Source: an uncultured virus (IMG/VR IMGVR_UViG_3300037846_000120)
Lineage: Duplodnaviria > Heunggongvirae > Uroviricota > Caudoviricetes
DNA length: 64,000 nt
Reading direction: 5' to 3' (one strand)
Virus record (IMG/VR): IMGVR_UViG_3300037846_000120
The position numbers and the translations under genes were made by a program. Of the stretch, positions 7,835 to 60,600 are shown piece after piece (positions within the stretch are counted from its first letter, which is position 1; every line of letters begins with the position of its first letter). The notes beneath the pieces are model-generated. The model made no database searches and was not told the origin of the DNA. It worked only from the letters and a program-made list of their open reading frames with translations.

Positions 7835-8062
7835 TCAACCCTCCACCGCCGTCACGCGTGATAACGCCACGCACCCGGTAATTCCCTCAAGCCACACCAC
7901 GGCGGTATGCCCGCCGATGACGCACGCTCTTGTTCGTGTTCTCGCTCGGACGGTAGAGTTGTCGTCCTTGCGGTAAATCACCGCGACGCCGGAGGAGCCG
8001 TGCTGGTTGTTCCACTGAGCAACTTCGGCGTCAGCATTTTGCTGCAATCGCGTCTGGCCCAT
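7835..8062 (-). CDS. hypothetical phage protein
   Basis: WN...GHTAVVWLEGITGCVALSRV pattern; operon context. Confidence 0.65.
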   Translation of the reverse strand: MGQTRLQQNADAEVAQWNNQHGSSGVAVIYRKDDNSTVRARTRTRACVIGGHTAVVWLEGITGCVALSRVTAVEG

Positions 8063-8066
8063 GGCG

Positions 8067-8998
<932 letters not shown>

Positions 8999-9002
<4 letters not shown>

Positions 9003-9274: not shown

Positions 9275-9837
9275 GGCCGCCTCTCGAAACTCGATCGGGA
9301 TTGCAGCTTGCGGCCCTTCGGCCACGGACCGCGCCGCCGTTGACGGCGGCGTGTCGGCTTCAAAAGTTGTTGCACGAAAGCTTTGCGGTGAGCCTCTAGC
9401 TCCCGATCAGAGACCGGAGGCCCGCCGGCGAGCGCTTCGTTCAAATAGCCGGCGGGAAGCGGCTCATCGCCCTTGAAGCCCTCGGTGCGGAGCGGCACCT
9501 CAATGCGCCGCCTTGTCTTTGTCGGCGACATTCGCCGGTTGAATGCGCGCTGCGCTTCTTCCAGTCGATCCGTCTTGGCAATGATGGACTTGTCGCGCCG
9601 GGACTTTTCCCGATGCGCGGGGCGCAGCAGCGGCGTAAAATTCCACCAGCGATCGGGACCGCCGAAGGCGTGCAGCACCACATGATCCTGGTCGAACATG
9701 GCGATGATGGTCTTCGCCGGCACCTGCTTGGCGCGCAGCTCGTCGCGCAATCCTTGCGGCAGCAGCATCGACAGCGCAGCCGCCCACTTCTCGCGGATGG
9801 CGACGTATTTGCGCGGGCGCTTGGTGCGGCGGGTCAT
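9271..9837 (-). CDS. HNH-like endonuclease
   Basis: DHVVLHAFGG...N...HREKSRRD...IAK pattern. Confidence 0.7.
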   Translation of the reverse strand: MTRRTKRPRKYVAIREKWAAALSMLLPQGLRDELRAKQVPAKTIIAMFDQDHVVLHAFGGPDRWWNFTPLLRPAHREKSRRDKSIIAKTDRLEEAQRAFNRRMSPTKTRRRIEVPLRTEGFKGDEPLPAGYLNEALAGGPPVSDRELEAHRKAFVQQLLKPTRRRQRRRGPWPKGRKLQSRSSFERRP

Positions 9838-10220
9838 TCCGCTGCCTCCGCGTACCGAAATAGCGCAACCGTGTTCTGCGGAAATATTTGGTCGCCATCG
9901 GCCGCCCAGCACATGCGGTAGCCCACGCCAGTGTTGCTCTCAATCCTTAGTCCTTCGAGTGCCAGCAGTGGGCGGACGATGCGATTGATCGTCGCCGAAA
10001 TAGATTTTTTTGCGCAAAGCGGGCCACCGTCGCTTTCGTCCGAATAGACAGCATCCGCGAGTACCTCGCCTTCGACCCACTGATTGAAATGTTCGGCGAG
10101 ATGTCGCGCTATGCGCCGGCCAACTTTGGCGAGCGGGAGTTCGGCTAGGATGAGGCCAATGACGGCCCGCTCCGGCAACTTCTGGCGGCAGCACGGACAG
10201 ATTGCGAGAACTGTTCTCAT
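9834..10220 (-). CDS. CxxC plus OmpR-type winged-helix DNA-binding protein
   Basis: CPCC N-terminus; LADAVYSD...GGP...IESNTGVGYRM. Confidence 0.7.
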   Translation of the reverse strand: MRTVLAICPCCRQKLPERAVIGLILAELPLAKVGRRIARHLAEHFNQWVEGEVLADAVYSDESDGGPLCAKKSISATINRIVRPLLALEGLRIESNTGVGYRMCWAADGDQIFPQNTVALFRYAEAAE

Positions 10221-16472: not shown

Positions 16473-16759
16473 GATTTTTCTCCAACAACAGCGCGGCATT
16501 TTCCGGCGACGACAGACGGCGCCTCGACGCGAAGCTGCAACGCGCCGATCTTGTCGTTGGCCTCGGTGATGGCTTCCTGGTAAATCCGCGCCGCCTCGTA
16601 GGAGACCGGCCCGCGGAAGAACAATTCGATCTCGAAGGACTTGCCGTCCGCCGCCTCGAGCGTCAGGCGCAGCCAATCGAGCGTCGGATTAGGGACGCGC
16701 GTTGCGCGGACGGCGACGATGCTGTGTGCGGTGAGATCGAAGGGGGAGCCGCTGCTCAT
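16469..16759 (-). CDS. hypothetical protein
   Basis: ATGA coupling on both sides. Confidence 0.55.
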   Translation of the reverse strand: MSSGSPFDLTAHSIVAVRATRVPNPTLDWLRLTLEAADGKSFEIELFFRGPVSYEAARIYQEAITEANDKIGALQLRVEAPSVVAGKCRAVVGEKS

Positions 16760-16917
16760 GGCCGCCGCTCCAGCGTCTCGCAATAAGCGCACTCCAACAC
16801 GCCATCGGGATTGGTGTTGTCGGGATCGTTCCAGGCGCCGCAGTTTTCGCAGCACCAACGGCCGGGAGCCGGCCGCATAAAGCGGGACGGAGAGGAGCTT
16901 GGGTCGCCGTAGGGCAC
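16756..16917 (-). CDS. zinc-ribbon protein, first gene of the left operon
   Basis: GGAGG-N5-GTG start; WCCENCG...CAYC. Confidence 0.6.
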   Translation of the reverse strand: MPYGDPSSSPSRFMRPAPGRWCCENCGAWNDPDNTNPDGVLECAYCETLERRP

Positions 16918-16943
16918 GGTAGCCTCCGAATCAACGGAGATCA

Positions 16944-16996
16944 TGCTGCCATTTTGGCAGCAACCGAGTCAAGGTTAAATTTCCAGATTGGCAGCA
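16944..16996. promoter_or_regulatory. OL-type operator pair and PL-like -35 (CTTGAC on minus strand)
   Basis: TGCTGCC-ATTTT-GGCAGCA (16944-16962) and AATTTCC-AGATT-GGCAGCA (16978-16996) match the cI/cro intergenic palindromes. Confidence 0.75.
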
Positions 16997-17101
16997 GACC
17001 GGCGAGGCCGAGGGATTTAAGGTTGTGACTGCAAGGATTGGTTGCCGGCGGTCGTAGCTCAACCACCTAGCCGCGGCTGATGTTGCGCAAAGGCAACAAA
17101 C

Positions 17102-17180
17102 ATCACGCGTGACTCGGCGTGACGGCGCGCGTCACGCGTGACTCACGCTAATACCTATACACAGACAAATACACACAGCA
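17102..17180. repeat. iteron-like cluster of RTCACGCGTGAY palindromes followed by an A/C-rich tract
   Basis: two exact and two partial copies in about 45 bp; no ORF on the plus strand. Confidence 0.6.
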
Positions 17181-17272
17181 TCAACCTCGGCCTGAGAGTG
17201 GCGCCGCAAAAAACGGCTTGGCGATGAAGGCAAGGAAAGGTCAGCGACGCTGACGCAGTCACGCGTGACAGA

Positions 17273-17560
17273 TCAGCGGGCCTTGCTGCGTTTGAGCTTG
17301 GCGATTTCCACAGCCATCGCGCGGGGCAACCCGGCGGCGTTGCCCAGGAACAGATAATCCAAGCTGACGCCGGTGAGGCGGGCAACTTTGATGGCACTGT
17401 CGATGCCGAGCTTGTTGGCGCCGGTCTCGACGTTGTTCCATGCTGAGACTTTAAGGCCGGCAAGCCGGCTGATGGCGGACTGGCTCATCTCACGGCCGAA
17501 TCCATGGATGCGGCCGTAGGCGATACGAACGAGGCGCAATCGCTGAGCAACAAACCGCAC
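17273..17560 (-). CDS. XRE-family HTH regulator
   Basis: RLRLVR...SQSAISRLAGL...WNNVETG...GVSLDYLFLG. Confidence 0.85.
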   Translation of the reverse strand: MRFVAQRLRLVRIAYGRIHGFGREMSQSAISRLAGLKVSAWNNVETGANKLGIDSAIKVARLTGVSLDYLFLGNAAGLPRAMAVEIAKLKRSKAR

Positions 17561-17562
17561 CT

Positions 17563-17703: not shown

Positions 17704-17714
17704 TGCGCAGGGCC

Positions 17715-18023: not shown

Positions 18024-18031
18024 TTCAATAA

Positions 18032-18109: not shown

Positions 18110-18118
18110 ATTGGGGCG

Positions 18119-18334: not shown

Positions 18335-18474
18335 CCATCCGTCGAAGGCGGTGATGCTGCGGGTGCCGCACAGCGAGAGTCGAGTCGGGGCGGCGTCACT
18401 AAATCGGTAAATCGCCCCCTGTGGAAACCTGTGGATGGTTTTTGTTGCGTGCGTTCTTCGATCTCAGGAGCGTC

Positions 18475-19416
18475 ATGCAGCAAGAGCCCGCGGCCAAAAC
18501 CTACGGCTGGTTTGGATTATACGAGACCTTCCTCGGGCATCCGAAGTGGCGGCTTGTTGCGCAACGCTCCGGCGTTCCGGTCGTCGAGGTTACCAGCATC
18601 GTCATGGCAATCCTCACCTGTGCAGCGAAGAACCGGCAGCATGGCTGGGTCGGTAATTTCAAATACGAGGAATGCGCGCTCACGCTCGAAATCCCGGTCG
18701 AGCATGTGATGCTGGTCTATCGCGCGCTCGCGGCGCCGCCGGTCGGAATCGGCTGGATCGCCGATAGCTGCATCGTCAATTGGCAAAAGCGCCAGCCGAA
18801 CTTTGGCCGCAACGACAAGGTGCGCAAGCAAGAGGCCATCCGCCAGCAGAACAAGCGCGACCGCGACGACGCGAGAGAGCGCGTCTTACTCGGAGTGGCG
18901 ACCGACGAGGATCGCGAACTCATCGGCCTGGCGGAGAGTGAAATATTGGCGAAGCTCGCCGCGCACGCGTCACGCGTGACGGGAACGCCGCCTGCAGCCG
19001 AGCCGCAGATCGCGGCCATCGCGCCCTTCATCCCGGTGCAGCCGAAAGAGGACACGCACCCGGCGCGCACCACGGCTGCGATCGAGAACGAGCGCACGGC
19101 GCGCGCCTGGCTCCTCGGCGACGCCAACTCACCGCCGCCCGGCTACGGGCCGGCGACAATGATCGTCGCCGATAATTTCATCATCACGCGGCTCAATGCC
19201 GAACTCGCCATTCGCCATTGGCTGAACAATGAAATGGCCGGCGATGTCGTGTCGCTCGCCGTCATCATCAGCGCCGCGCAGCAGCAGGCGCTCAACGGCG
19301 ACGCCTTCCGCCGCGTGGTCGAAGGTCGCATCAGTGAGTACGTGCGTGAGCAGACGTCAGGCCCGACATTGCCGCTCGGCATTCCGCGCGGTGCGATCCA
19401 AGGAGGGAGGAACTGA
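18475..19416 (+). CDS. phage replication initiator / replisome organiser-like protein
   Basis: AGGAG RBS; WF.LY..FL.HPKW N-terminus, IVNWQKRQ plus basic helix; position after cro. Confidence 0.7.
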   Translation: MQQEPAAKTYGWFGLYETFLGHPKWRLVAQRSGVPVVEVTSIVMAILTCAAKNRQHGWVGNFKYEECALTLEIPVEHVMLVYRALAAPPVGIGWIADSCIVNWQKRQPNFGRNDKVRKQEAIRQQNKRDRDDARERVLLGVATDEDRELIGLAESEILAKLAAHASRVTGTPPAAEPQIAAIAPFIPVQPKEDTHPARTTAAIENERTARAWLLGDANSPPPGYGPATMIVADNFIITRLNAELAIRHWLNNEMAGDVVSLAVIISAAQQQALNGDAFRRVVEGRISEYVREQTSGPTLPLGIPRGAIQGGRN

Positions 19417-20834: not shown

Positions 20835-20909
20835 TTTTTGTCACGCGTGATCGCGTGAGGGCGGTCGCTGCGTTTTTAGATCATCGGACGCAAGAGCCAT
20901 CGGCAGCAT

Positions 20910-23603: not shown

Positions 23604-24218
23604 ATGCGCCCGATGCCGCCAGCAGAGATTGTCGAGCGGCAGATCGACGGGCCGATGTTCGCGCCGGCGCCGGACATACTGGAATGGATGACGGCGACGT
23701 TCATCCAGGACAGCGGCTATGTCGCCAACCCGGATCACGGTCATCTGGTGAGTGCGCGGATCGGAGTGTTATGGGCCGGCGTGCGCAACAGCCGCCACGG
23801 TCGAAGCATCGTCGGGCAAGCGGAGTTCAAGCCGCCGGGTGGTTCGATGGGGAAGTGGGCGCGGGCTAGAGCTCAAGCGCAACTGCTGGGATGGTTCGGC
23901 TGCGATCTCGATTTCCTGTTGACGTTCGACGCGGAATACGCGGCACAGGCAAGCGACGCCGAGTTTTGCGCCCTGGTCGAGCACGAGCTTTATCACTGCG
24001 GCCAGGCCAAGGACGAATTCGGGCAACCAAAGTTCATCGCCGACACCGGCATCCCGGTATTCGCAATGCGCGGCCATGACGTTGAGGAGTTTGTCGGGGT
24101 GGTGAAGCGGTACGGGGTGGTTTCAGCCGATGTGGCGGCAATGGTCGCGGCGGCTGCGGAGATCCCGACGGTCGATCCCGAATTCATCCGCGGCGCCTGC
24201 GGCACCTGTCACGCGTGA
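23604..24218 (+). CDS. putative phage metallopeptidase
   Basis: FCALVEHELYHC HExxH motif, HDVEEF.GVV.RYG. Confidence 0.9.
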   Translation: MRPMPPAEIVERQIDGPMFAPAPDILEWMTATFIQDSGYVANPDHGHLVSARIGVLWAGVRNSRHGRSIVGQAEFKPPGGSMGKWARARAQAQLLGWFGCDLDFLLTFDAEYAAQASDAEFCALVEHELYHCGQAKDEFGQPKFIADTGIPVFAMRGHDVEEFVGVVKRYGVVSADVAAMVAAAAEIPTVDPEFIRGACGTCHA

Positions 24219-24240
24219 CGGTTTGACCGGACCTTGACCG

Positions 24241-26334: not shown

Positions 26335-27636
26335 ATGACCGATTCAGCCGCGAACCTCCAAACCAAGGCCGGCACTGCATGGCATGTCCAGGGCAACGCC
26401 ATCATGGCGCAGCTCGGACACATCACCGGCGCCGGCAGTCCGCTCGGCTCCGTCACGCCCGCTTTCGCCGGCCAGGAATACCAGGACACGACCGCTAAGC
26501 AGTTCTGGCGCGCGAACGATGTCACCAATACGTCGTGGGTGCAGGTCGGCGGATCGGGCGGCGGCGCTGGCAGCGGCAATGTCAAAAACACCGCCATCAC
26601 CACCGTTGGCGCCGGCACGCTCACTGCTGCCGCGATCGCCGGCGGCATCATAAGCCGCTCGGGCTCGACGGCGGCTTACACCGACACCACCGATACGGCC
26701 GCGGCGATCATCGCCGCCATGAGCAACGAGGCGGTGAACTCGTCCTTCGTCCTCGAAATCCGCAACACCGTGAACTTTCCCGAGACGATTGCCGCCGGCA
26801 CCGGCGTCACGCTGTCGGGCAACACGATCGTTCCCGGCAACAGCATCGGTTATTATCTCGTCACCATCACCGGCGCTGGCGCGGTGTCCATGGTCGGCTT
26901 CGGCGTATCGCCGCTGACCATGCAGCCGCCGATCGCTTCGACCGCGCTCACCACGGTTGGCGCCGGCACCATTACCGGCGCCGGCATTGCCGGTGGCATG
27001 AGCCTGCGCTCGGGGCCCACCGCCGCCTTCACCGATACGACCGATACCGCTGCAAACATCATTGCGGCGCTGCCGAACGCGACCATCGGGCAGTCGTGGG
27101 ATTGGACTTACGAGAACACCACAAACTTCCTGGCAACGCTCGCTGGCGGAACGGGCGTAACGATTTCAGGCAACACGCTTGTCCCGCAGAACTCGTGGGC
27201 GGAGTTCCTGGTCACCTATACGGCCGCGAACACCATCACGCTTCAGTGCGTCGAGGCGGGCTCGAACGCGCCGATCCCGGACGCGCAATATTCCACCGCT
27301 GCGCTGCAATCAGCCGTGATCCCGGCCGCCAATATGGCTGGCGCCAAGATTGTTGCCTTCGAGAACACCGGCACCACGCCCGCCAACCTGCAATCGGATA
27401 CGGCCGCCAACATCGTTGCCGCGATCCCGAATGCCAAAGTCGGCATGTCGTACCTGCTCAAGATCAGGAATTCGTCAGGCTCCGCCAACACCGCGACCAT
27501 CACGACGAACACCGGCATCACGCTTCACGGCACCATGACCATCGCGCAGACCGTCACGCGTGACTTCCTGGTGCAGCTCACCTCGCTCACCGCAATCGAT
27601 ATCTATTCGATGGGGATTTCGGCGGCTGGCGCGTAA
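26335..27636 (+). CDS. Thr/Ala/Gly-rich virion protein with three internal repeats (decoration/fibre-like)
   Basis: GGAG RBS; repeats of T(T/S)DTAA.I(I/V)AA....G.S...I.N....T...GTG.TL.G. Confidence 0.75.
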   Translation: MTDSAANLQTKAGTAWHVQGNAIMAQLGHITGAGSPLGSVTPAFAGQEYQDTTAKQFWRANDVTNTSWVQVGGSGGGAGSGNVKNTAITTVGAGTLTAAAIAGGIISRSGSTAAYTDTTDTAAAIIAAMSNEAVNSSFVLEIRNTVNFPETIAAGTGVTLSGNTIVPGNSIGYYLVTITGAGAVSMVGFGVSPLTMQPPIASTALTTVGAGTITGAGIAGGMSLRSGPTAAFTDTTDTAANIIAALPNATIGQSWDWTYENTTNFLATLAGGTGVTISGNTLVPQNSWAEFLVTYTAANTITLQCVEAGSNAPIPDAQYSTAALQSAVIPAANMAGAKIVAFENTGTTPANLQSDTAANIVAAIPNAKVGMSYLLKIRNSSGSANTATITTNTGITLHGTMTIAQTVTRDFLVQLTSLTAIDIYSMGISAAGA

Positions 27637-32907: not shown

Positions 32908-33048
32908 AAATCCGTCCGCCGTCACGCGTGATGGCGACCTCCTTCATCTGGCGAGACTTGCCGGATGCTTCCGCACGCCGAGAGCGCATCTCGGTCGGGC
33001 CGCCGCCGTTCGGGCGCTTCCGCAAAGTTTTCCCGCGCAGAGGATGAC

Positions 33049-35377: not shown

Positions 35378-35502
35378 GCCACTAGGGCAATGCCCTTCGG
35401 CGTCGGCATTCGTCACGCGTGATGCGTGCCGGCGCCACTCCAATTCGTCAAACGCCAGAAGAAATCAGCAACCCCGAAATTCGCAAAGGTTAGGAACACA
35501 CC

Positions 35503-41969: not shown

Positions 41970-42821
41970 ATGCGCCAGATGAGCGCCGCGTGCCGCGCGC
42001 GGCTCACCGAGCCGTGGGAAGAGTTCGTCCCTTACGTCTATGACGACAAGGTGCCGAAGCGGCGGGATCCTGCAACCGGACGTCTCGCATATCCTGAGTG
42101 GGATGGTGGCGCGGTGCGCGGCACGCTCACCATCGCGACCGGACACACCGACGCCGCGGGTGCGCCGAAGATCGTACAGGGCTTGCGCGTCACGCGTGAT
42201 GAAGGCGACGCGATCCTGTCTCACGACTTGGCGCCGTGCGAGGCGCACGTCAACGCGCTGCTCAAGGTGCCGGTGACCCAGCACCAGGCCGATGCGATGT
42301 ACGACACCTATTTCAACTGCCCGGCCGCGGCGATCGCCGCCATCAAGCTCATCAACGCCGGCAATATCCAGGCTGTGCCAGCGAAGCTCCTGCAATACAC
42401 CTACTCCAAGGGCGAGCACATGGATGGGCTCACCCATCGCCGCACCGCGGAGATCGCGTGGTTCAATACGCCCGATCATGTCGAAGCACCGGCGGCGCCG
42501 CATCCCGACATCGTGTTCTGCCCGAAGGGCGAGCGCAACCCGCCGCCGAAACCGGCGACGCAATCGAAGGCCATCACGGCTGGCGGCGGCGTCGCTGCCG
42601 GCGGCGTCATCACCGCCATCCAGTCCGCCAATGAGGCCGCGGCGCCGATCGAGGAAGCCAAGCAACACGTCCTTGATCTCGGCGGCGACGATCTGTTGTC
42701 GCGCTTTGTCGACTTCGCCCACTCACCCGCGTTCGGATTGATTGTCGCCGGCATCATCGTTGTGCTCGGCGGATTTCTCATCCTCGACCGCTGGTCAAAA
42801 TTAAGGAACGATCATGTTTGA
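41970..42821 (+). CDS. GH24-type endolysin with C-terminal membrane segment
   Basis: E...YDD...TIATGHT, TQHQADA....FN, GL..RR.AE...F. Confidence 0.85.
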   Translation: MRQMSAACRARLTEPWEEFVPYVYDDKVPKRRDPATGRLAYPEWDGGAVRGTLTIATGHTDAAGAPKIVQGLRVTRDEGDAILSHDLAPCEAHVNALLKVPVTQHQADAMYDTYFNCPAAAIAAIKLINAGNIQAVPAKLLQYTYSKGEHMDGLTHRRTAEIAWFNTPDHVEAPAAPHPDIVFCPKGERNPPPKPATQSKAITAGGGVAAGGVITAIQSANEAAAPIEEAKQHVLDLGGDDLLSRFVDFAHSPAFGLIVAGIIVVLGGFLILDRWSKLRNDHV

Positions 42822-49860: not shown

Positions 49861-52737
49861 ATGGCTTCGCCCACTGCCAATCCGTTCGATCAATTCGACG
49901 GACCGGCTCCCACCAAACAAGACAATCCGTTCGATCAATTCGACTTTGGATCGTACCCCTCGGTGATCGCGCGCGGCGTTGCGCGCGGCGCAATCGATAC
50001 GACCGCGACTGCGCTCAAGGGTTTGCCGGTCATCGAGCGCGCGTCCGAGCCAGGCAACCTCAGTTACCTTGAAGGCTCGGGCGGCGGTACGATGTTCGCG
50101 CCACCGGAAAATCCGCAGCCGCAAACTCCGATCACCGAGACGGCGCCGTACAAAGCCGGTCAAGCGGTGCGGCAATTTGGCGAACGCCGTGCTCCGATGA
50201 CGGCGGCCGAGGAGCAAAGCTTCACCGGCAAAGCAAGTCGCATGGCGGGCGGTGCAGTTCCCTTCGTTGCTGGCGCGCTGCTCGCGCCTGAAGTTGCGCT
50301 GCCGGCAGGCGCCACTGTCTTTGCATCGTCATCGGCGGCTTCATCGTTCGACGATTTCAAAACGCGCGGCGCCAGCGATGAAGACGCGGCGAAGGGCGCC
50401 GGCCTTTCCGCGATCGTCGGCGGCGGTCTCGGTGTGCTGCCGCTCGGCGCGATCCTGGCGCCGGTGCGCCGCACGGCGCCTGGCATGGTCGGCTGGGCGC
50501 TGACAAAACTTGAGCAGGCGCTGCAATCGGGCGCGACGTTTGGCACGGTCGGCGAAGCGCAGAAGTTTCTTGATGAGGAAATCAAGCGACACTCTGCCAG
50601 CGATTATGTTGGCGCTCCGGTTGATGCCTTCGGGTCAACGACGCCGCAAGGCGTCGAGGCGGCAACGCCGGCCGGCTACACATTCGATCCTAAGAGCTAC
50701 GCCGCAAGCATCGCTGCCGGCGGCGCGCTCGGTGTGGTGCATCCGCTCGCAGCTCCGCGCGTCAGCACGCCGGAAGAAATCGCAGCGTTCAACCGCGCCG
50801 CATCGGCTGCACCTGGTGCGGAGAAAACATTCAGCCAGACGCGCGCCGACATCGACGAGTTTTTGCGAACGCGCGCCGAGCGCGAAGCCGCAGCAGCGCG
50901 CGACGCCGGACAACTGCAGCTGCCGCCGCCGGCCGAGCCCGGCGAATCGGCGCCGCAAGCGGCAGCACCACAACCCGAAGCGCCATCAGGCGGTGAAACA
51001 TTCCCGTCGTTCGAGGAGCCGGGACGCACGTCGCCGGCGGCGGCGCCAAATCCATTCGATCAGTTCGAGCAGCCGACTGTGGAGATCCCGAGCGCTGCGC
51101 CGGCCGAGCCGCAACCGCCGGCGCCCCGCACCGACGTCGGGCCGCACGTCCTCCAAGCTCTGCTCGATGACCCGCGGTCGGCGGCTGAAATCCGCGGCTC
51201 GATCGACGCGAGGAAGGCGGCCGGTGATCAGGGGTCAACCCCCATCCAAACGGAGGTCAACCCCCAACCGCTGGCCCAAGCCCTTGACCAGACTCCAGAT
51301 ATTAACCACGTTTCACGTGAAACCCCGGGTAGCAGGGACCTTCCAGTGGCGCTGGAAGGCCCGGAGCACGTCCTGGCGGGCGCCGAGCACACCGCCGAGC
51401 CCACGCCCGGCCAAGCCGACGCGGGCAACTACCGCAAGCGCCATGTCACCTGGAATGGCCTCGATCTTACCGTCGAGACCGAGGCCGGCATGGAGCGCCG
51501 CGGCACCGGAGCGGACGGCCAGCCCTGGTCGGTTACGCTCACTTCACCATACGGCTACATCAAAGGGACAAAAGGCCGCGATGGTGAACAAGTTGACGTT
51601 TATCTAGGCCCGCAACCGCAATCCCCCCACGTCTTCATCGTCGATCAGATCGACCCGGCCACCGGCCGGTTCGACGAGCACAAGGCGCTGGTCGGCTTTC
51701 CCGACGAAGCGAGCGCTCGAGCTGCGTACCAACAGGCCTTTTCCGACAACAGCGCCGGAAGCCGTCTAGGCGCCCTGCAGAGCCTCACCGTTGAGGGGTT
51801 CAAGGACTGGCTGCGGAAAGGTCAGCGCCGAGAGCCCCTCGCTTACAGCGACACTGTAGGGGCGGCGCAGCGCATTGCGCGCGAGATCGGGGTGAACGCG
51901 ACCGCGGCCGAGGTCGAGGAAGCGGCGCGCATCCACAAGGGCAGCAATGCTGACCTAACCGATGTCCTGGTCGCAGTGATCGAGCGAAACGCCATTGCCG
52001 AAGAAGCGGAATCGGCGGACAGTGTCCAACGTCACGAGGCGAACGATGGTCGGCAGGTTGAGCCCGCAGCAGAGAATACTTCTGGCGCACAGCTTGCGCC
52101 GGCAGGCGAACCAACCGGGCGTCCCGGTGCGCAGGAAGTTGGAGAAGCGCCGGCTGGCATCGAACCTGGTGAAGCTGAACGCGATCGACGCGCAGCGGGC
52201 GAACGCCTAGACCAGCGCAGCGGTTTTTCTCCCAGCCAATTGAAGACGCTGCTCGACGAGGAGGATGAAAGCCTCGTCGGCATGTGGCATCAGGCCCGCG
52301 AGCCGATGCCGCCCGACGCATCGGATCAGCACAGCGCCTATGTCAGCCGGATCACAAAGGACCTTGATCGGCTCGGCGTGTTGCACGCCGCAACCGAACA
52401 GGAAGTTCGCGATCTCTTGATGGACCGCCGGCTCCGCAAGGAGACGGTGCAGCCGCGTGGCAGTGAAATTCTCGATCTGCAAGCCGAGCCGGAGCGTCCT
52501 GCGCTCACAGCGCCCGTCACGCGTGATGCGGCGCCGGCCGAGCCTGAGATCACGCCGTTGGGCACAACGGCGGCGACGCTGACCAAGCTCATCCCGAAAA
52601 TCGCAAAAATGTCGGACGCCGATCGCGCCGACGTGCGCCAGCGCGTCGCGACGATGATGGCCGACATGGAAGCGGAAGGCCGCAAGATCGCGGAGCACTG
52701 CGTAGAGACCGGCGGAAAATTCTCCGTCCGAAGATAG
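49861..52737 (+). CDS. large ejection/polyvalent protein with inorganic pyrophosphatase-like domain
   Basis: NPFDQF repeats, hydrophobic G/A helices; AGNYRK...YGYIKGT.G.DG..VDV..G...FDEHK...GF. Confidence 0.8.
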   Translation: MASPTANPFDQFDGPAPTKQDNPFDQFDFGSYPSVIARGVARGAIDTTATALKGLPVIERASEPGNLSYLEGSGGGTMFAPPENPQPQTPITETAPYKAGQAVRQFGERRAPMTAAEEQSFTGKASRMAGGAVPFVAGALLAPEVALPAGATVFASSSAASSFDDFKTRGASDEDAAKGAGLSAIVGGGLGVLPLGAILAPVRRTAPGMVGWALTKLEQALQSGATFGTVGEAQKFLDEEIKRHSASDYVGAPVDAFGSTTPQGVEAATPAGYTFDPKSYAASIAAGGALGVVHPLAAPRVSTPEEIAAFNRAASAAPGAEKTFSQTRADIDEFLRTRAEREAAAARDAGQLQLPPPAEPGESAPQAAAPQPEAPSGGETFPSFEEPGRTSPAAAPNPFDQFEQPTVEIPSAAPAEPQPPAPRTDVGPHVLQALLDDPRSAAEIRGSIDARKAAGDQGSTPIQTEVNPQPLAQALDQTPDINHVSRETPGSRDLPVALEGPEHVLAGAEHTAEPTPGQADAGNYRKRHVTWNGLDLTVETEAGMERRGTGADGQPWSVTLTSPYGYIKGTKGRDGEQVDVYLGPQPQSPHVFIVDQIDPATGRFDEHKALVGFPDEASARAAYQQAFSDNSAGSRLGALQSLTVEGFKDWLRKGQRREPLAYSDTVGAAQRIAREIGVNATAAEVEEAARIHKGSNADLTDVLVAVIERNAIAEEAESADSVQRHEANDGRQVEPAAENTSGAQLAPAGEPTGRPGAQEVGEAPAGIEPGEAERDRRAAGERLDQRSGFSPSQLKTLLDEEDESLVGMWHQAREPMPPDASDQHSAYVSRITKDLDRLGVLHAATEQEVRDLLMDRRLRKETVQPRGSEILDLQAEPERPALTAPVTRDAAPAEPEITPLGTTAATLTKLIPKIAKMSDADRADVRQRVATMMADMEAEGRKIAEHCVETGGKFSVRR
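51309..51324. promoter_or_regulatory. parS-like site
   Basis: cGTTTCACGTGAAACc; perfect 14-bp core of consensus TGTTTCACGTGAAACA. Confidence 0.6.
52046..52210 (+). CDS. putative nested +1-frame gene (54 aa, basic helical)
   Basis: GAGG RBS; MVGRLSPQQRILLAHSLRRQ...RRLASNLVKLNAIDAQRANA; main frame reads like a shadow frame here. Confidence 0.45.
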   Translation: MVGRLSPQQRILLAHSLRRQANQPGVPVRRKLEKRRLASNLVKLNAIDAQRANA

Positions 52738-54480: not shown

Positions 54481-54682
54481 CAAAAAATTCCTCTGCCTTT
54501 ATGCCTGTGACGCGCATAATTTCCTGCTCCGCCTCCCGCCAAATTATGTACGCGACCGTCATATCTTGAACGGCCAGATCACAACCAAAAAACACGACGC
54601 CTTCGTTCGTCGGCAGTGCCGATGCTGGCCCGGCGACAAGCGCCGCGCCCAGGCCCAACAGGAAATCCCTTCTATCAACCAT
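54470..54682 (-). CDS. small antisense protein with Tat-like signal
   Basis: MVDRRDFLLGLGAALVAGPASA. Confidence 0.5.
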   Translation of the reverse strand: MVDRRDFLLGLGAALVAGPASALPTNEGVVFFGCDLAVQDMTVAYIIWREAEQEIMRVTGIKAEEFFAKP

Positions 54683-57600
54683 GATCCGCTGCCCCAACTT
54701 CCGCTCCGATAAGGTCCGCGAGGACTTCAACGGCGTTTTGCAACGCCTCGGCGGCGTAGCTATGTCCGCAGACGACATTGCGCCGCGGCAACCTTATCTC
54801 GCCAAGCTCAACGAAACGCAAATCGCAGCGTATCACACCGCCCATTACCTGTGGAACGCGCACAAGAAGGTGGGAGACATCCTCGACTTTCTGGATGCGC
54901 TCGACGCGGTGAACAATGCGCTGGAAGCGCCGGTCAATGCACCGGAGCAGCCATCTGATGCAACAAAGCCGCCCGATCACGCAACAGAGCGGCCCAAAAA
55001 TGCGCCGATAGCGCCTAAAGATGCACAGGCCCCGGAAACGGGGCCTTCTTCGTCTGAGGCGGCGCCGCTGTCCAATCTGCCGTCGATCGAGCTTGCGCGC
55101 TCGCTGCTTGAGCGGTTGCGCGCTGGCAAGCCGATCACCAGCAAAATCCTCCAGGAAGAAGCCGGCTTGTCCTATGGCGGCAAGCTCTCGGAAGGCCGCT
55201 TCGACCGCAAGGACATGGCGGATGCGCTCGAACTCGCGGTGAACATGCACATCGCGCAGGATCCCGCGCTGCGCGTCACGGGCGACGACTGGCGAGGCCC
55301 GATCGCCAAGCTCGACGCGCTGTTGTCGAAGCTTCCCACTCAGCGCGTGCGCTCCGATGAACAGGTCAGCTTTCAGCAATTCTCGACGCCGCCCACCTAC
55401 GCCGCCGCCGCGACCTATGCCGCCAATCTCCGCGAAGGAGACACATTAATTGAACCTTCGGCGGGAACCGGCTCGATCGTCGCGGCGGCGATGCGGCCGG
55501 GCGTCAAGATCATCGCCAATGAATTGTCCGAGCGCCGCACGGCGCTGTTGCGCGCGCTGATCGGCTCTGACGGCAAAGTGTTCCGCGAGAATGCCGAGCA
55601 GCTCAACAACGTGCTGCCCGACGACGTCAAGCCGAACGTCGCGGTGATGAATCCGCCATTCTCGCAAACCGCCGGCCGCATGGGCGACCGCAAGGTGCCG
55701 ATGGTGGCGCCCATGCACATCGAGCAAGCGCTCAAGCGGCTCGAAGATGGCGGGCGCCTCGTCGCCATTGTCGGCCGCGGCATGACCATGGGCCAGCCGG
55801 GCTACCGGGCCTGGTGGTCGAAAATCTCCGCCGAATACACCGTGCGCGCCAATATCGGCGTCGACGGCAAGGTGTACGAGAAATACGGCACCACTTTCGG
55901 CACTCGTTTACTCGTCATAGATAAGATTGCGCCATCGGGTGATTCGAAGCCCGTTTTGGCAGATGCGCAGACGGTCGAAGACCTGATGCGCTTGTTGGAG
56001 CCGATCAGAAATGGGCGCTCAGCGGACAATCAAGGAGAACAGCGCGTCGGTGAACCTGGCGGCGCGCAGGTGGATCATGCTCGCTCTGAAGCAGATGCCG
56101 GACCCGCACTACTTGCACCTCCTCCAACTGGCGGAGTGGGGACTGACGAACAAGGCGCAGGGCGACTGGCCTCCGAACGATCAGTACGCGCTGGAAGATC
56201 AGATACGGCATCTGTTCGGGTGGAGCGCGGCCAACGTGATGAGTTGGCTTTTCAGCAATCCGAACGGCCCGGACAAGCCGGAGCAACAGGCGAGCCTGCT
56301 AAAGCTGCTGCGGGAGACGGACAAGCCGGAGCGCGCCGCGGCGCACGTGCTCAACGCGATCTACAGCCGTCAGGTGAGCCAAAATCCGGCCTTGCAGCCG
56401 GCGGCGAGCGAGTAGAGCTCGAACACGCCGCGCCCGGCACCCAGGGCGCTTCCGAGATATCCGACAGCCTCTACGACAATTACAAGCCGCAGCGCGTGCG
56501 CGTGGCCGGCGCCAAGCCGCATCCGTCGAAACTGGTGGAATCGGCCGCGATGGCTTCGGTGTCGCCGCCGACGCCGACTTACAAGCCCAACCTGCCGCGC
56601 GCGGTTATAGAGAAAGGTCTGCTGTCGGACGCGCAGCTCGAGGCGGTGGTCTATGCCGGCGAAGCCCACGGCAAGATGCTGCCGGCGGCCGAAGGCGAGA
56701 CGGCGAAGCGCAAGGGCTATTTCATCGGCGACGGCACCGGCGTCGGCAAGGGCCGCGAGATCAGCGGTATTTTCCTCGACAACTGGAACCAAGGCCGCCG
56801 CCGCGGCGTGTGGGTGTCCGAGAAAAACACCCTGCTCGAAGATGCCAAGCGTGATTGGTCCGGGCTGCAACAAAACCCGAACCTCATCTTTAATATCGGC
56901 AAGGTGAAGACCGGCGAGCCGATCCAGACCAAGCAAGGCATCGGCTTTGTCACCTACGACACTCTCAAGGGCGGCATGTCGGATCAGGCCGCGCTCTCGC
57001 GCGGCGAATTTGTGCGCAAGCAGCAAGTCAAGGTGAACGGCCAGAGCGGCAAGGTCGCAAAATTCGGCAAGACGTCCGGCGGTCAGCCAGGGCAGATCAC
57101 CGTCAATCTCGACAACGGCTCTACCGTTACCGTGCCGAGCAACGAGGTCCAGGCGCTCGAAAAGGCCAACATCAAGTCGCGCGTCGATCAGATTGTCGAT
57201 TGGCTGGGTGAAGATTTCGACGGCGTTATTGCGCTCGACGAATCCCACAACATGGCCAACGCGACCGGCGGCAAGGGCGACCGCGGCAAAAAAGACGCGG
57301 CGATGAAGGCGATCGCCGGCATGGAATTGCAGAAGCGCTTGCCCAATGCGCGCGTCGTCTACGATTCGGCGACCGGCGCCACCGAAGTCTCCAATCTCGC
57401 CTATGCCGATCGGCTCGGCTTGTGGGGTAGGGGTACTCCATTCGCTTCACGAGAAGCCTTCGTGACCCAGGTCGAGGAGGGCGGCATTGCGGCGATGGAG
57501 TTGATCGCCCGCGACATGAAGGCGCTCGGCCTCTATACCGCGCGCAACTTGTCCTACGACGGCGTTGAGTACGATCGGCTTGAGCACAAGCTCGACGAAA

Positions 57601-60600
57601 ATCAGCGTGAGATTTACGACACCCTGGCCGAAGCGTGGCAGCATGTGCTGCGCAACATCAACGCGGCGCTGAAAAGCACCAAAGCCGAGAAAGACGGCCG
57701 CGCCAAGGGCGCAGCCTATTCGGCATTTTGGGGCGCGCATCAGCGCTTCTTCAATCAGATCGTCACGGCGATGCAGATGCCGACCGTCATCAAGGCGGTC
57801 GAGAAAGACATCGAAGCCGGCCGGCAAGCGGTGCTGCAACTCACCAACACCAACGAGGCATCACAGGAGCGCGCCGCCGCCAAGGCTCAGTCGGCTGAGG
57901 AAATCGAAGATTTGGACATCACGCCGCGCGACCAGATCATCCAGCTTGTCGAGCATTCGTTCCCGACCCAAGCCTATGAAGAATATATCGACGACAAAGG
58001 CAAAAAGCGCGCCCGACCGGTGCTAAATTCAAAGCGCGAGCCGGTACAAGATCGCGGCGCCGTTGCAGCGCGCGCGCGCCTGATCGAAGAACTTGCCTCG
58101 ATCCGGGTGCCGCAAGGCCCGCTCGAAATGATCCTCGATCACTTCGGCATCGATACCGTCGCCGAAGTGACCGGCCGCGGCCGGCGCTTTGTGCGCAAGC
58201 CCGACGAGAAGACCGGCGAAATGCGCCGCGTCGAGGAAAGCCGGCCGGGCTCGTCCAACATCGCCGAAACCGACAATTTCCAGGCCGGCAAGAAAAAGGT
58301 GCTGGTGTTCTCCGAAGCCGGCGGCACCGGGCGCTCGTATCACGCCGACAATACTGCGCCGTCGAAAGACGCGCGGCGCGCACATTACGTGGTGCAGGGC
58401 GGCTGGCGGGCCGACAAGGCGGTGCAGGGCCTTGGCCGCACGCACCGCTCCAATCAGGCGAGCGCGCCACTGGTGCGGCTGCCGACCACGGACCTGCCGG
58501 GACAAAAGCGCTTCATTTCCTCGATCGCGCGGCGCCTGGGGCAACTCGGCGCGCTGACCAAAGGCGAGCGCAAGGCCGGCGACCAGGGCATCTTCAACGC
58601 CCGCGACAATCTGGAAAGCATCGAAGCAACGACTGCGCTCACGCAGTTTTTCAAAGACGTGGTGAATGGCGCGGTGCCGGACATCACCGTCAATGACTTC
58701 GAAGAACAGACCGGCCTCAGTCTGCGACTGACGGACGACGACGGCCGGGTCATGGGCATGGCGACCGACTTCCCGCCCATCACGCAATTCCTCAACCGGC
58801 TGCTGTCGCTTAAGATCGACATGCAGAACCGCGTCTTTGACGCATTCTCCGAGCGGCTCGACGCCGTGATCGAAGCGCGCCGCGAGGCCGGCTTGCTCGA
58901 CGTCGGCATGGAAACCGTCCGCGCCGACAAGATCACCAAGGCAAGCGAGCAGACCGTGCACACGGTCGAAGGCTCCGGCGCCGAGACGAAATACGTCAAG
59001 CTCCAGGTCTCAAAAAAGTTTGTGCCCACCGAATTCGATAAGGTCGCCTCGAACGAATGGCGGCCGGTCGAAGCCTGGCTCGAAAGCCCAAACGGCAAGG
59101 TGTACGCCGCAGCGAAGGCGCCGAGCCTGACGGATAGCAGCGGCAAGATCATCGATAATTTCCGCCTCGTCAGTCCGGTGTCCGATTCGCGCACCGTGCC
59201 GAAACTCAACATCGAGAAGCCCGACAGCAAGTGGAAAAAGATCGAGCGCAGCGAGGCGTCGGCGCTCTGGCGCAAGGAGATCGCTGCGGCGCCGGAGTTC
59301 ATCACGCGTGACATGCACCTGATCACCGGCGCAATTCTGCCGATTTGGGACCGGCTCAAAGGCAATCCGCGCGTGGTGCGGCTGCAAACCGACAATGGCG
59401 AGCGGCTGATCGGGCGTGTGGTGCCCAACGAAGCCATTGCCGCCACGCTCAAGGCGCTCGGCGCCGAAGCGCAATTCAGCCGCGTCACGCCGCCAGAACT
59501 ATTCCATAAGATCGCCGCCGGCGGTCGCGCCACACTGGCGAATGGCTGGACCTTGAGCCGGCGCCTCGTCGCCGGCGAGCAGCGCATCGAGCTCAATCCC
59601 CGCGGTGTCTCATTCAGCGAGGCCCGGGAGCTTAAGCGCGACGGTGTTTTCAGCGAGATCATCGATTACAAGATGCGCTACTTCGTGCCGATGGAGGCGC
59701 GGCGCGGCGCCCTTGTCCTCGGCAAGCTGACCGAGTACCGGCCGATCGCCGACATCCAGGAAGCGGGAGCGGCGCCGGACGACATGGCCGCCGGCGACGA
59801 GCCGATGTTCTCGATCCGCGGGACCGCGGCCAAAGACGGCCGCGAGGGTGCCGTCAAAGCCGAAAGCGACCAACTGGCGGAAGCGGTCGCGCGTCGCATC
59901 TTCCCGGAGCTGCGCATCGAACTCGACAAGCTCGGGCTGGAAGACGTCGACCTCAATCTGCCGGGCAAGCTCACGGCGCGCACCGGCGGCAAGACCTATC
60001 TGCTCAACGGGCATTATCTGGATCGAACCATCACGGTCGCGCTCGATGCCGACAACATCCGGCAGACCATGCACCATGAGGTGTTGCACGCGCTCCGCGA
60101 TCTCGGGCTGTTCAAGGACGGCGAGTGGGGCATTCTCTCGACCAAGGCGCGGCAGGCCTGGCGCAAGCAGTATCCGATCGACCGGCTCTACAGTCACCTG
60201 GACGACGAAGGCAAAGACGAGGAAGGCGTCGCCCACGCCTACGCCGATTGGGCCGCCGGAAAAGCAACGGTCGATGGCCGTATTGCGCGGCTGTTCAAGC
60301 GCATCAAGGCTTTCTTCGAGGCGCTGCGCAACGCGCTGCATGGCCTTGGCTTCAAGACCGCCGAGGATGTGTTCAAAGACATCCGCTCCGGCGAAGTCGG
60401 CCGGCGCGATCGTGCCGGCGTTGGCGGCGAGCCGATGTTCTCCGTGCGCGACGACGCGGCGCCGGCGGCGCTGAAGGACAACCCCAAGCTCAGCGCCCGC
60501 ATCCGCGAGCGCATCGAAGCCGCGCTCGACAGCAAGTTCGCGCACAAATTCATCGAAGGCACGCAAGACCTGTCGCACCCGGTCAAGCTGTTGCAGCGCG

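What the first reader, a model, noticed from the sequence alone, without database searches (positions are those of the whole stretch)
7851..59312. Prophage-wide 12-bp palindrome RTCACGCGTGAY (13 exact copies): a dispersed genome-marking site
Seen: TCACGCGTGA cores start at 7852, 17103, 17132, 17259, 18970, 20841, 24209, 27554, 32922, 35413, 42190, 52517 and 59302. All 13 also have purine/pyrimidine flanks (RTCACGCGTGAY), and I found none in the 5-kb host flank. A rough zero-order estimate assuming about 65% GC gives well under 0.1 expected copies. Copies occur between genes (before the Q-like gene, at the stop before terS, before scaffold, after MCP) and inside genes (read as VTRD, SRVT or HA-stop), which implies selection on the DNA. 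These sites differ from the cI/cro operators. Inference: a second phage protein binds along the whole genome, as a stoperator-like silencer, a centromere/condensation site (it resembles the parS core TCACGTGA with a CG insertion), or titrating initiator sites. Candidate binders are the initiator (site inside its own gene), the second XRE protein (site 5 bp past its stop) and the winged-helix protein at 9834-10220.
Basis: partly seen in the sequence, partly recalled or inferred. Interest (0 to 1): 0.86.

Follow-up and report, generated by a model that had tools for sequence, protein, structure and literature searches.

The report
Replication-initiator sites scattered across a prophage
A 12-letter DNA palindrome that many phages keep only at their replication origin has been copied 13 times along this prophage and is kept there by selection, so one phage protein, most likely the replication initiator, probably reads the whole genome.

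Summary
All 13 RTCACGCGTGAY copies are at the stated coordinates. Shuffles and Markov models expect 0.01-0.27 copies. Five host-relative genomes carry about 1 copy per Mb. Synonymous-codon shuffles expect 0.3 in-gene copies; 6 are seen.

The new point is what the motif is. In at least 120 other phage contigs the same 10-mer forms tight arrays inside replication-initiator genes, spaced at multiples of about 11 bp. Normally it stays there: 37 of 50 such records have exactly two copies.

The window's initiator (18475-19416) belongs to this group and carries one copy in its linker. Three more copies sit next to an AT-rich tract at 17.1 kb, a module conserved in two relatives. A related prophage (G164:C30) repeats the scatter with 11 copies, four locations shared with the window.

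Best reading (about 0.5): these are initiator-binding sites, with nine secondary copies at gene boundaries and inside genes. The purpose of the secondary copies is inferred, not shown. The XRE candidate is disfavoured and the parS idea is not supported. A separate silencing repressor remains the main rival.

Earlier notes of this scan recorded origins inside initiator genes (including GTCACG arrays) and repressor operator networks on other DNA. None that I retrieved recorded this scatter.

The parts
7851..7862 (.). Site 1, GTCACGCGTGAT, in the left arm between the genes 8067-9002(-) and 7099-7614(-)
   Evidence: Gene context is uncertain because small ORFs 7617-7874(-) and 7835-8062(-) overlap it.
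17100..17185 (.). Origin-like module. It holds two full palindromes (17102-17113, 17131-17142), extra half-sites GCGTGAC (17117) and TCACGC (17143), and then an A/C-rich, AT-rich tract (about 17148-17180).
   Evidence: The same layout (palindrome, CGTGAC/GTCACG half-sites, then an AGACAGAGA-type tract) recurs in G164:C30 and G009 at the same place, between the early-left operon and the XRE gene.
17258..17269 (.). Site 4, GTCACGCGTGAC. It lies 4-5 bp past the stop of the XRE gene and just before a terminator-like hairpin (17240-17254).
18475..19416 (+). Replication-initiator gene (313 aa). Its N-terminal domain matches phrog_3729. Site 5 (18969-18980) lies in the linker and is read as SRVT.
   Evidence: The model gives pLDDT below 50 for residues 166-183, which the site encodes. 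GTCACGCGTGAC is invariant at this place in 5 lineages of 36-49% identity while the flanks differ.
20840..20851 (.). Site 6, intergenic. It lies 6 bp after the stop of 20502-20834 and 65 bp before the phrog_9306 gene. A GCGTGA half-site and a terminator-like hairpin follow it.
   Evidence: It is kept in G006 with both flanking bases changed within R/Y.
24208..24219 (.). Site 7. It overlaps the TGA stop of the PF18894 metallopeptidase gene and lies 22 nt before the phrog_546 gene that precedes TerL.
   Evidence: The same position is occupied in G164:C30 (17845) despite diverged flanks. It is degraded by one base in G006.
27553..27564 (.). Site 8, inside 26335-27636 (VTRD)
   Evidence: Also present in L001.
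32921..32932 (.). Site 9, intergenic, 117 nt before the scaffold-position gene 33049-34242
   Evidence: GTCACGCGTGA is the longest invariant block in a three-way alignment with G164 and G006.
35412..35423 (.). Site 10, intergenic, 35 nt after the stop of the major capsid gene
42189..42200 (.). Site 11, inside the endolysin gene (VTRD)
   Evidence: Same position in G006.
52516..52527 (.). Site 12, inside 49861-52737 (VTRD, low-complexity stretch)
59301..59312 (.). Site 13, inside the 2741-aa polyvalent gene (ITRD)
   Evidence: The G164 homolog reads VEKP at this place within a stretch that is 67% identical, so the protein sequence differs exactly where the window carries the site.
17273..17539 (-).
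16944..16962 (.). Immunity-type operator TGCTGCCATTTTGGCAGCA. Its partner is at 18091-18109. It is distinct from the motif.
   Evidence: G009 and G008 have their own operator pairs at the same two places.

Best explanation
RTCACGCGTGAY is the recognition site (iteron) of the prophage's own replication initiator, encoded at 18475-19416.

I read the copies in two sets. The core set is the one palindrome in the initiator's linker plus the module at 17100-17185, which has two palindromes, two half-sites and an AT-rich tract. With the third copy at 17258, I take this as the origin and its control region.

The other nine copies are secondary binding sites. They sit at gene boundaries (before the phrog_9306 gene, at the junction before the packaging genes, before the scaffold-position gene, after the capsid gene) and inside long genes.

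Once the initiator is made after induction it would occupy all 13 sites. I think the most likely effect is that the bound protein acts as a roadblock and a sink. That would tie read-through into packaging, head and lysis genes, and the amount of free initiator, to the number of genome copies.

Shown here:
- enrichment of the motif;
- selection on the DNA over the protein;
- conservation of site positions;
- the link between this 10-mer and initiator genes.

Inferred:
- that the initiator binds these sites;
- that the 17.1-kb module is the origin;
- what the secondary sites do.
For: 1. The motif is tied to initiator genes.
- In the 80 loci fetched, the spacings cluster at 11-12, 21-24, 33-35 and 43-45 bp.
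- In 45 of 80 loci the pair lies inside one ORF family. One representative matches Pfam DUF1376 (E 4e-18).
- Of the other 35 loci, 30 have an ORF spanning the pair. I sent 21 of these plus one representative to PHROGs. 20 of the 22 hit 'replication initiation', 'replication' or 'primosomal' families.
- A sister subfamily uses direct repeats GTAACGCC or GTCACGCC followed by a purine tract, so the site varies with the protein.

2. The window's initiator belongs to this group.
- It matches phrog_3729.
- It is homologous to ORFs spanning the pair in L109 and L157 and to the ORF next to the pair in L135.
- GTCACGCGTGAC is invariant in the linker of 5 lineages whose flanks differ.

3. A natural swap separates the candidates. 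G009 and G008 share the XRE/Cro-type immunity module.
- G009 has the window-type initiator. It has sites in that gene, upstream of it, and in the origin-like module.
- G008 has a DUF1376 initiator instead and has none of these sites.

4. The origin-like module is conserved in the window, G164:C30 and G009.

5. The scatter is selected and recurs.
- G164:C30 has an initiator 37% identical to the window's in the genome search (34% by tblastn) and a capsid protein 70% identical.
- It has 11 copies in 61.6 kb, against 12 in the other roughly 4.7 Mb of that genome.
- Four of its locations match the window's: the cluster, the linker, the metallopeptidase stop and the region before the scaffold gene.
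- 3 of 3 VTRD peptides in the window, and 3 of 3 in G164:C30, are spelled GTCACGCGTGAY. CGT makes up only 5.5% of Arg codons, so the chance is 0.008 per peptide.

6. Confinement to the origin is the norm.
- 37 of 50 array-bearing phage records have exactly 2 copies.
- The maximum is 5.
- Only 2 of 50 have a single copy more than 4 kb from the array.

7. G011 has the same initiator family and four scattered copies. They lie in terS, about 180 bp upstream of an antiterminator-family gene, in the gene next to the endolysin gene, and in the gene next to the initiator gene.
Against: - No binding data exist. The link between initiator and motif rests on co-location and analogy with phage lambda.
- The initiator lies downstream of the cro-like gene, so it should be silent in a lysogen. 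It therefore cannot explain any silencing in the prophage state.
- G014 has 7 copies, but none lies in its DUF1376 initiator gene.
- G008 keeps one copy on the GTG start of TerL although it lacks the window-type initiator.
- G007 has the window-type initiator but no copy in that gene.
- The window's two clustered palindromes are 29 bp apart, which is not a whole number of helical turns.
- Several sites lie 19-33 nt from start codons or on a start or stop codon. That fits a roadblock for any bound protein and does not point to the initiator in particular.
- The scan's earlier notes show that genome-wide repressor operator networks are common in prophages.
Confidence: 0.5

Rival explanations
1. 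A separate phage regulator, expressed in the lysogen, binds the palindrome. It acts as a stoperator-like silencer that blocks stray transcription into the antiterminator-position, packaging, head and lysis genes. On this reading the match with initiator iterons means the silencer also shuts the origin. The regulator could be the XRE protein or an unrecognised small protein.
For: - Three copies flank the XRE gene's downstream side.
- Sites sit next to or inside the genes most harmful to a lysogen. Examples are the packaging junction in the window, G164, G008, G009, G011 and G014, the endolysin gene or the gene next to it (window, G006, G011), and the region upstream of the antiterminator-family gene in G011.
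- Several sites lie within 19-33 nt of a start codon or on it, which suits a roadblock.
- G014 and G008 have sites not linked to an initiator gene.
- Dispersed repressor networks are known (PMC6550527 and PMC9283540: passages and abstract seen). The scan has noted them often.
Against: - The XRE recognition helix is nearly the same in the window, G009 and G008, yet G008 has no copy near that gene.
- Ordinary operator pairs of a different sequence sit at the two early-promoter positions in all three phages.
- CI and Cro types differ between the window and G009, yet both carry the motif.
- No extra DNA-binding protein is shared by the scatter-bearing phages beyond generic HTH similarity.
- Stoperators are asymmetric and oriented with transcription (PMC6550527). 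This site is a perfect palindrome.
- This reading does not explain why the same 10-mer forms phased arrays in initiator genes of many phages.
Confidence: 0.22
2. The scattered copies are cis-acting DNA signals for a late process, read by a late protein rather than by the initiator. Candidate processes are packaging-series starts, punctuation of the late operon, or recombination hot spots at module joints.
For: - A copy lies at or beside the terminase genes in phages with at least four terminase-gene sets that gave no cross-match here: the window and G164, G008 and G009, G011, and G014.
- The only copy in the complete 62.6-kb G008 lies on the TerL start codon.
- Sites mark module joints such as the scaffold upstream region and the region after the capsid gene.
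Against: - Different small-terminase families would not share one recognition site.
- 13 packaging starts per genome would be odd.
- Five copies lie deep inside genes.
- The conserved cluster next to the early region and the in-linker copy have no link with packaging.
- No rearrangement breakpoints at sites were seen in the alignments made.
Confidence: 0.08
3. A host factor reads the motif, or it is a restriction-modification or methylation target built on the ACGCGT core.
For: - The same 10-mer recurs in phages of 53-73% G+C with several initiator families, which could point to a shared cellular reader.
- The 2741-aa protein has a weak methyltransferase-like stretch (phrog_6263, E 1e-10).
Against: - Host-relative genomes carry only about 1 copy per Mb.
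- Related initiator subfamilies use other repeats, which fits protein-specific recognition.
- Restriction targets are usually avoided by phages, not enriched.
- Array spacings at multiples of about 11 bp fit proteins bound on one face of the helix.
Confidence: 0.05
4. The count is a by-product of base composition, codon usage or conserved peptides.
For: - Some in-gene copies fall on peptides that are conserved as protein: IVTRD in the adaptor gene and the CxxCHA end of the metallopeptidase.
Against: - Searches give expectations of 0.01-0.3 under every null model tried.
- The rare CGT and TCA codons are used every time.
- The window's protein sequence differs from its homolog exactly at site 13.
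- 7 of 13 copies are intergenic.
Confidence: 0.01

Closest known systems
Phage lambda origin: O-protein iterons inside gene O next to an AT-rich tract (from my own knowledge; also named as closest by the scan notes)
   Same: An initiator-specific palindromic site lies in the linker-coding part of the initiator's own gene. In many relatives it forms phased arrays. A tract of skewed, AT-rich composition adjoins it.
   Different: In this clade the gene holds a single copy and the multi-site module lies 1.3-1.9 kb away in an intergenic region. Nine more copies are spread over about 50 kb. To my knowledge lambda has no such scatter.
Stoperators of Cluster A mycobacteriophages (L5 gp71 and relatives; PMC6550527 passages seen, PMC9283540 abstract seen)
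   Same: Many exact copies of one short site lie across a temperate phage genome, between and inside genes. A bound protein could stop transcription there.
   Different: Stoperators are asymmetric, oriented with transcription, and bound by the immunity repressor. Here the site is a perfect palindrome, the immunity-type operators have another sequence, and the site matches origin iterons.
17-bp dyad repeat TGTTCGGNNNCCGAACA of Cluster O mycobacteriophages (PMC4351075, passages seen)
   Same: An invariant palindrome lies throughout the genome, many copies intergenic and about a third in coding regions. Most copies are not at promoters. The reader protein is unknown.
   Different: Corndog has 34 copies, denser at one genome end, in phages that are not obviously temperate. 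The passages I read draw no link to replication.
Split or secondary initiator sites: SPP1 oriL/oriR bound by G38P, P4 ori plus crr, and chromosomal DnaA boxes with the datA sink (all recalled, not checked here)
   Same: One initiator binds sites well away from the main origin. Distant sites act as a second origin, an enhancer or a sink.
   Different: Those systems have one or two extra clusters, not about nine single sites placed at gene boundaries along a phage genome.
Global operator sets of plasmid RK2 (KorA 12-bp and KorB 13-bp palindromes; recalled, not checked here)
   Same: About a dozen short perfect palindromes are spread over roughly 60 kb, some far from promoters, and are read by one small dimeric protein.
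   Different: KorB is a ParB-family partition protein. No ParB-family protein was found among the window's 71 proteins.

Membership tests
Lambda-type origin (initiator plus iterons) | Repeated initiator sites in or beside the initiator gene | tested here: met
   One copy lies in the gene (18969-18980) and three lie 1.2-1.4 kb upstream of its start codon. Relatives in the same family have 1-3 copies within about 2 kb.
Lambda-type origin (initiator plus iterons) | Sites spaced in helical phase | tested here: inconclusive
   This is met in the 80 array-bearing loci, with spacings of 11-12, 21-24, 33-35 and 43-45 bp. In the window the spacing is 29 and 127 bp, and in G164 it is 21 and 47 bp.
Lambda-type origin (initiator plus iterons) | Adjacent easily melted or compositionally skewed tract | tested here: met
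   An A/C-rich, AT-rich tract at 17148-17180 follows the sites. AGACAGAGA-type tracts sit at the same place in G164 and G009. It is not among the 15 lowest-GC 60-mers of the window; the nearest, 16929-16988, is 115 bp away.
Lambda-type origin (initiator plus iterons) | The initiator binds the sites and replication starts there | not testable with these tools
   This needs EMSA or ChIP and origin mapping.
Stoperator network (Cluster A type) | Many dispersed copies in a temperate phage, between and inside genes | tested here: met
   13 copies, 7 of them intergenic. An integrase gene lies beside tRNA-Pro.
Stoperator network (Cluster A type) | Asymmetric site oriented with transcription | tested here: not met
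   The core is a perfect 10-bp palindrome. The flanks show only a weak left/right difference.
Stoperator network (Cluster A type) | Same site as the operator at the early lytic promoter, bound by the immunity repressor | tested here: not met
   A different 19-bp palindrome pair occupies the two early-promoter positions. Binding itself was not tested.
ParB/parS centromere | ParB-family protein encoded by the element | tested here: not met
   No ParB-family Pfam or PHROG hit appeared among the proteins scanned (71 and 66).
ParB/parS centromere | 16-bp parS consensus with a CACGTG core | tested here: not met
   The motif has CG inserted at the centre. TCACGTGA occurs once in the window.

The most novel reading that the evidence does not exclude
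The replication initiator doubles as a genome-wide timer. Early after induction it sits on about a dozen iteron copies placed before packaging, head and lysis genes and blocks read-through. As replication multiplies the sites, the fixed pool of initiator is diluted over them. Late genes then open and re-initiation falls. Late expression would thus be coupled to genome copy number without a dedicated late regulator. The two long polyvalent genes of the window and of G164:C30 each carry two copies at non-homologous places, which fits selection for site density rather than for position.
Probability: 0.15. Interest if true: 0.8.

Novelty: new variant of a known kind. Interest (0 to 1): 0.62.

Why it matters
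First, it assigns a concrete DNA word, GTCACGCGTGAC, to a very large and uncharacterised group of phage replication initiators (DUF1376/YdaU-like and related PHROG families). These occur in phages of 53-73% G+C. My searches of the held papers for the word itself and for DUF1376 found nothing on this. This part can be tested directly with one protein and one oligonucleotide.

Second, it shows a clade where origin sites have escaped the origin and are kept at specific gene boundaries, even at the cost of rare codons and a changed protein sequence. If the initiator reads them, a replication protein acts as a genome-wide regulator or architectural protein in a phage. That would make the long-standing question of how late gene expression is tied to replication testable in a new system. 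If another protein reads them, this is a silencing network that shares its site with the origin, which is also not described.

Tried and rejected
- Megablast of 24000-44000 against the phage collection found no match.
- A portal-protein search of genome contigs found no relative.
- Alignment A4 was too diverse for a locus search. I used the 4-sequence A5 instead.
- Half-sites GTCACGC and GCGTGAC outside the palindromes are not enriched: 6 each, against 6.8 and 5.6 in simulation.
- The consensus promoter scan gave no consistent promoter next to the sites. It found 1 promoter-like site in 16700-21100 and 3 in 21100-41000, at or below shuffle expectation.
- Terminator-like hairpins touch only 3 sites (17103, 17259, 20841), so there is no general link.
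- The initiator has no paralog in the window.
- The initiator profile found no PDB relative by sequence (best E 0.21).
- The AlphaFold model was only moderate (pLDDT 69, pTM 0.37). Foldseek against PDB gave no match at E 0.001 or better.
- Other over-represented words in G007, G008 and G009 turned out to be tandem or protein repeats, not scattered sites.
- The copies in the long polyvalent genes of the window and G164 are not at homologous positions.
- A literal paper search for the 10-mer returned 22 papers. The 20 listed, judged from titles and abstracts, concern unrelated topics.
- Notes for this genome: none.
Full report
**1. The observation**

TCACGCGTGA occurs 13 times in the window, at exactly the coordinates given. 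Dinucleotide shuffles expect 0.12 copies, and 0 of 100 shuffles reach 13. All 13 copies have purine/pyrimidine flanks (shuffles expect 0.01). Only 3 one-mismatch variants exist, so the word is kept exact.

Markov models of order 1 to 5 expect 0.07-0.27 copies. Higher orders are dominated by the motif itself: 13 of the 22 ACGCGT sites in the window lie in it.

**2. Setting**

I made a gene map with a self-trained codon scorer and annotated it with Pfam and PHROGs.

- Host genes run up to a tRNA-Pro at 4987-5063.
- An integrase gene follows at 5138-6589.
- A leftward early operon carries a Dda-like helicase, an AAA_24 protein and a NinB-like protein.
- The immunity region holds an XRE gene (17273-17539), a CI-like gene and a cro-like gene.
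- The rest is one long rightward block: the initiator (18475-19416, phrog_3729), a phrog_9306 gene, a phage tRNA-Thr, a metallopeptidase, a phrog_546 gene, TerL, a P22-type portal, the capsid gene, an endolysin, and a 2741-aa polyvalent protein.

No att repeat was found inside the window, so the right end of the prophage probably lies beyond base 64000.

On this map, 7 of 13 copies are fully intergenic and one overlaps a stop codon. Only 10.3% of the prophage is intergenic. The binomial tail is 1.2e-4, or 3.1e-3 with the three clustered copies counted once.

**3. Host control**

No genome is held for the window. A host flank protein placed the host among uncultured Xanthobacteraceae; the best match is 83% identical. 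Five of those genomes carry 5, 4, 4, 8 and 6 copies in 4.9-9.6 Mb, about 1 per Mb. The prophage carries 13 in about 59 kb. The caveat is that these are relatives, not the host itself.

**4. Selection acts on the DNA**

- Shuffling synonymous codons within each of my called genes gives a mean of 0.30 in-gene copies (maximum 2 in 300 rounds). 6 are seen.
- All 3 of 3 VTRD peptides in the prophage proteome are spelled GTC ACG CGT GAY. CGT is only 5.5% of Arg codons, so the chance is 0.008 per peptide.
- The SRVT in the initiator uses TCA, which is 7% of Ser codons.
- At site 13 the window reads EF-ITRD-MHL where the G164 homolog reads EF-VEKP-LHL, in a stretch that is 67% identical. The amino-acid sequence differs exactly where the site sits.

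**5. What the word is**

I scanned viral contigs for two copies 5-35 bp apart. In the 80 loci fetched, the spacings cluster at 11-12, 21-24, 33-35 and 43-45 bp. This is the pattern of proteins bound on one face of the helix.

The pair lies inside an ORF in most loci.

- 45 of 80 loci fall in one ORF family. A representative matches Pfam DUF1376 at E 4e-18.
- Of the other 35 loci, 5 have no spanning ORF and 30 do.
- I left out 9 of those 30 that looked like wrong-frame or very short ORFs: L107, L108, L117, L124, L135, L153, L171, L178 and L180.
- I sent the other 21 plus one DUF1376 representative to PHROGs. 20 of the 22 hit families named replication initiation, replication or primosomal protein (phrog_2447, 16167, 22470, 3992, 3729, 1408, 9474).

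In these genes the word sits after a basic stretch in the middle of the protein and is read as VTRD or SRVT. So the word is an origin iteron written into the initiator's own gene, as in phage lambda. A sister subfamily uses direct repeats GTAACGCC or GTCACGCC followed by a purine tract. The site therefore changes with the protein, which argues for the initiator rather than a universal host factor as reader.

Earlier notes of this scan had recorded such origins, including a GTCACG array in a DUF1376 gene. I reached the same point independently.

**6. The window's initiator belongs to this group**

- It is homologous to the ORFs that span the pair in L109 and L157 and to the ORF beside the pair in L135.
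- In five lineages of this subfamily (window, G009/L245, L244, L241, L242; 36-49% identity) the linker is otherwise unconserved. GTCACGCGTGAC is invariant at the same place in all five.
- Two members lack it: G007 and L243.
- The AlphaFold model is moderate (pLDDT 69). It has a helical N-terminal domain, long helices, a low-confidence linker exactly where the site lies, and a helical C-terminal domain. Neither Foldseek nor a PDB sequence search named the fold.

**7. The 17.1-kb cluster looks like the origin**

Positions 17100-17185 hold two palindromes, two extra half-sites and then an A/C-rich, AT-rich tract.

G164:C30 and G009 have the same layout at the same place, between the early-left operon and the XRE gene. 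It consists of a palindrome, then CGTGAC and GTCACG half-sites, then an AGACAGAGA-type tract.

Two DnaA-box-like words (CCTGTGGA) lie just upstream of the initiator gene at 18418-18435. A similar word lies in G009's module.

**8. Who reads it: a natural swap**

Each of the window, G009 and G008 has its own 17-19 bp palindrome pair at the two early-promoter positions. The window's is TGCTGCC-N5-GGCAGCA at 16944 and 18091, G009's is ATACAG-N5-CTGTAT, and G008's is TTACAC-N5-GTGTAA. These are the ordinary immunity operators, and they differ from the motif.

- G009 and G008 share the XRE and Cro-type genes.
- The XRE recognition helix is nearly the same in all three phages.
- G009 has the window-type initiator and has copies in that gene, upstream of it and in the origin-like module.
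- G008 has a DUF1376 initiator instead and has none of these.

The sites follow the initiator, not the XRE. CI and Cro types also differ between the window and G009. The initiator has no paralog in the window. No other DNA-binding protein is shared by the scatter-bearing phages beyond generic HTH similarity.

**9. The scatter is unusual but recurs**

In 50 array-bearing phage records (29-131 kb), 37 have exactly two copies and the maximum is 5. Only 2 of 50 have a single copy more than 4 kb from the array, which is about what chance gives.

The window's relatives by portal protein carry fewer copies: 4 in G006 (28.8 kb), 4 in G009 (39 kb), 2 in G007 (24.7 kb), 1 in G008 (62.6 kb, complete) and 0 in G010 (15 kb).

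A search of 401 genomes of the host family with the initiator found 4 hits.

- G164 has 23 copies genome-wide, 11 of them on the 61.6-kb contig C30.
- C30 holds a prophage related to the window's: capsid 70%, TerL 69%, helicase 73%, initiator 34% identity by tblastn.
- It has a three-copy cluster upstream of the XRE gene, one copy in the initiator linker, one on the stop codon of the metallopeptidase gene, and one upstream of the scaffold-position gene.
- These four locations match the window's, with diverged flanks.
- Its other copies are lineage-specific, including two in its long polyvalent gene at places not homologous to the window's two.
- It has only 1 one-mismatch variant.
- A second hit, G089, has the in-gene copy plus an upstream pair only. 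The other two hits have no copy on the contig that carries the initiator match.

G011 has the same initiator family and carries the in-gene pair plus 4 scattered copies. These lie in terS, about 180 bp upstream of an antiterminator-family gene, in the gene next to the endolysin gene, and in the gene next to the initiator gene.

**10. Facts that do not fit neatly**

- G014 has 7 copies, none in its DUF1376 initiator gene.
- G008 and G009 keep a copy on the GTG start codon of TerL. It is G008's only copy, although G008 lacks the window-type initiator.
- A copy at or beside the terminase genes recurs across at least four terminase-gene sets that gave no cross-match here.
- Several copies lie 19-33 nt from start codons. 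That fits a roadblock on the DNA but not an upstream activator site.
- No consistent promoter geometry was found.
- The initiator should be silent in a lysogen, so it cannot account for any silencing in the prophage state.

**11. Verdict**

The best reading, at about 0.5, is that the palindrome is the initiator's binding site. The 17.1-kb module and the in-gene copy form the origin and its control region. The nine other copies are secondary initiator sites held by selection. Their most likely roles are roadblock and sink, which would tie late transcription and initiator supply to copy number. That last step is inference.

The main rival, at about 0.22, is a separate lysogen-expressed silencer that shares the site with the origin. 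The XRE candidate and the parS idea are disfavoured.

Compared with what is known:
- It works like a lambda-type iteron system whose sites have spread in the manner of stoperators (PMC6550527, PMC9283540) or of the Cluster O 17-bp repeat of unknown function (PMC4351075).
- It is not a member of the stoperator kind. The site is symmetric and differs from the immunity operators.

I call it a new variant of a known kind.

Noticed in passing
G008 record, 53486-53497 (L240 about 3486-3497): The DUF1376 initiator gene of G008 carries, in its linker, a single near-consensus parS-like palindrome (GTTGTTTCACGTGAAACCAG). This is the window's motif without the central CG. It could be a variant initiator site or a borrowed host ParB site.
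   Followed up: partly
window 16944-16962 and 18091-18109: A pair of 19-bp palindromes, TGCTGCC-N5-GGCAGCA, sits at the starts of the early-left operon and of the cro-like gene. These are the likely immunity operators. G009 and G008 have different pairs at the same two places.
   Followed up: partly
window 18418-18435: Two DnaA-box-like words (CCTGTGGA) lie 40-57 bp upstream of the initiator gene. A similar word lies next to the origin-like module of G009.
   Followed up: no
window 21802-21878 and 4987-5063: The phage carries its own tRNA-Thr (TGT). A tRNA-Pro next to the integrase gene is the probable attachment site. No att repeat was found inside the window.
   Followed up: partly
window 49861-52737 and 54681-62906; G164:C30 44863-56385: The window has two large polyvalent proteins. 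One (958 aa) has an InPase domain. The other (2741 aa) has a methyltransferase-like stretch, a Strawberry-notch helicase and LPD38. Their counterparts form one 3840-aa reading frame in G164.
   Followed up: no
window 32940-33040: Two copies of CGCTTCCGC-type words between site 9 and the scaffold-position gene are conserved in G164 and G006. This could be a late regulatory element.
   Followed up: no
window 8067-9002 (-): This 311-aa protein has a long Ala/Asp/Tyr low-complexity repeat (AADAAAYAADAA...) and no family hit.
   Followed up: no
G015 record, 20717-24535 (L229 10717-14535): An 84.8-kb phage has 6 intergenic copies of a longer variant, TCTCACGCGTGAGAC: an array of four and a pair. The flanks differ from GTCACGCGTGAC, so this may be a different reader.
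   Followed up: no
window 16756-16944 (-): The first gene of the early-left operon encodes a 62-aa protein with two CxxC pairs (zinc-ribbon-like). It lies next to the origin-like module and its function is unknown.
   Followed up: no
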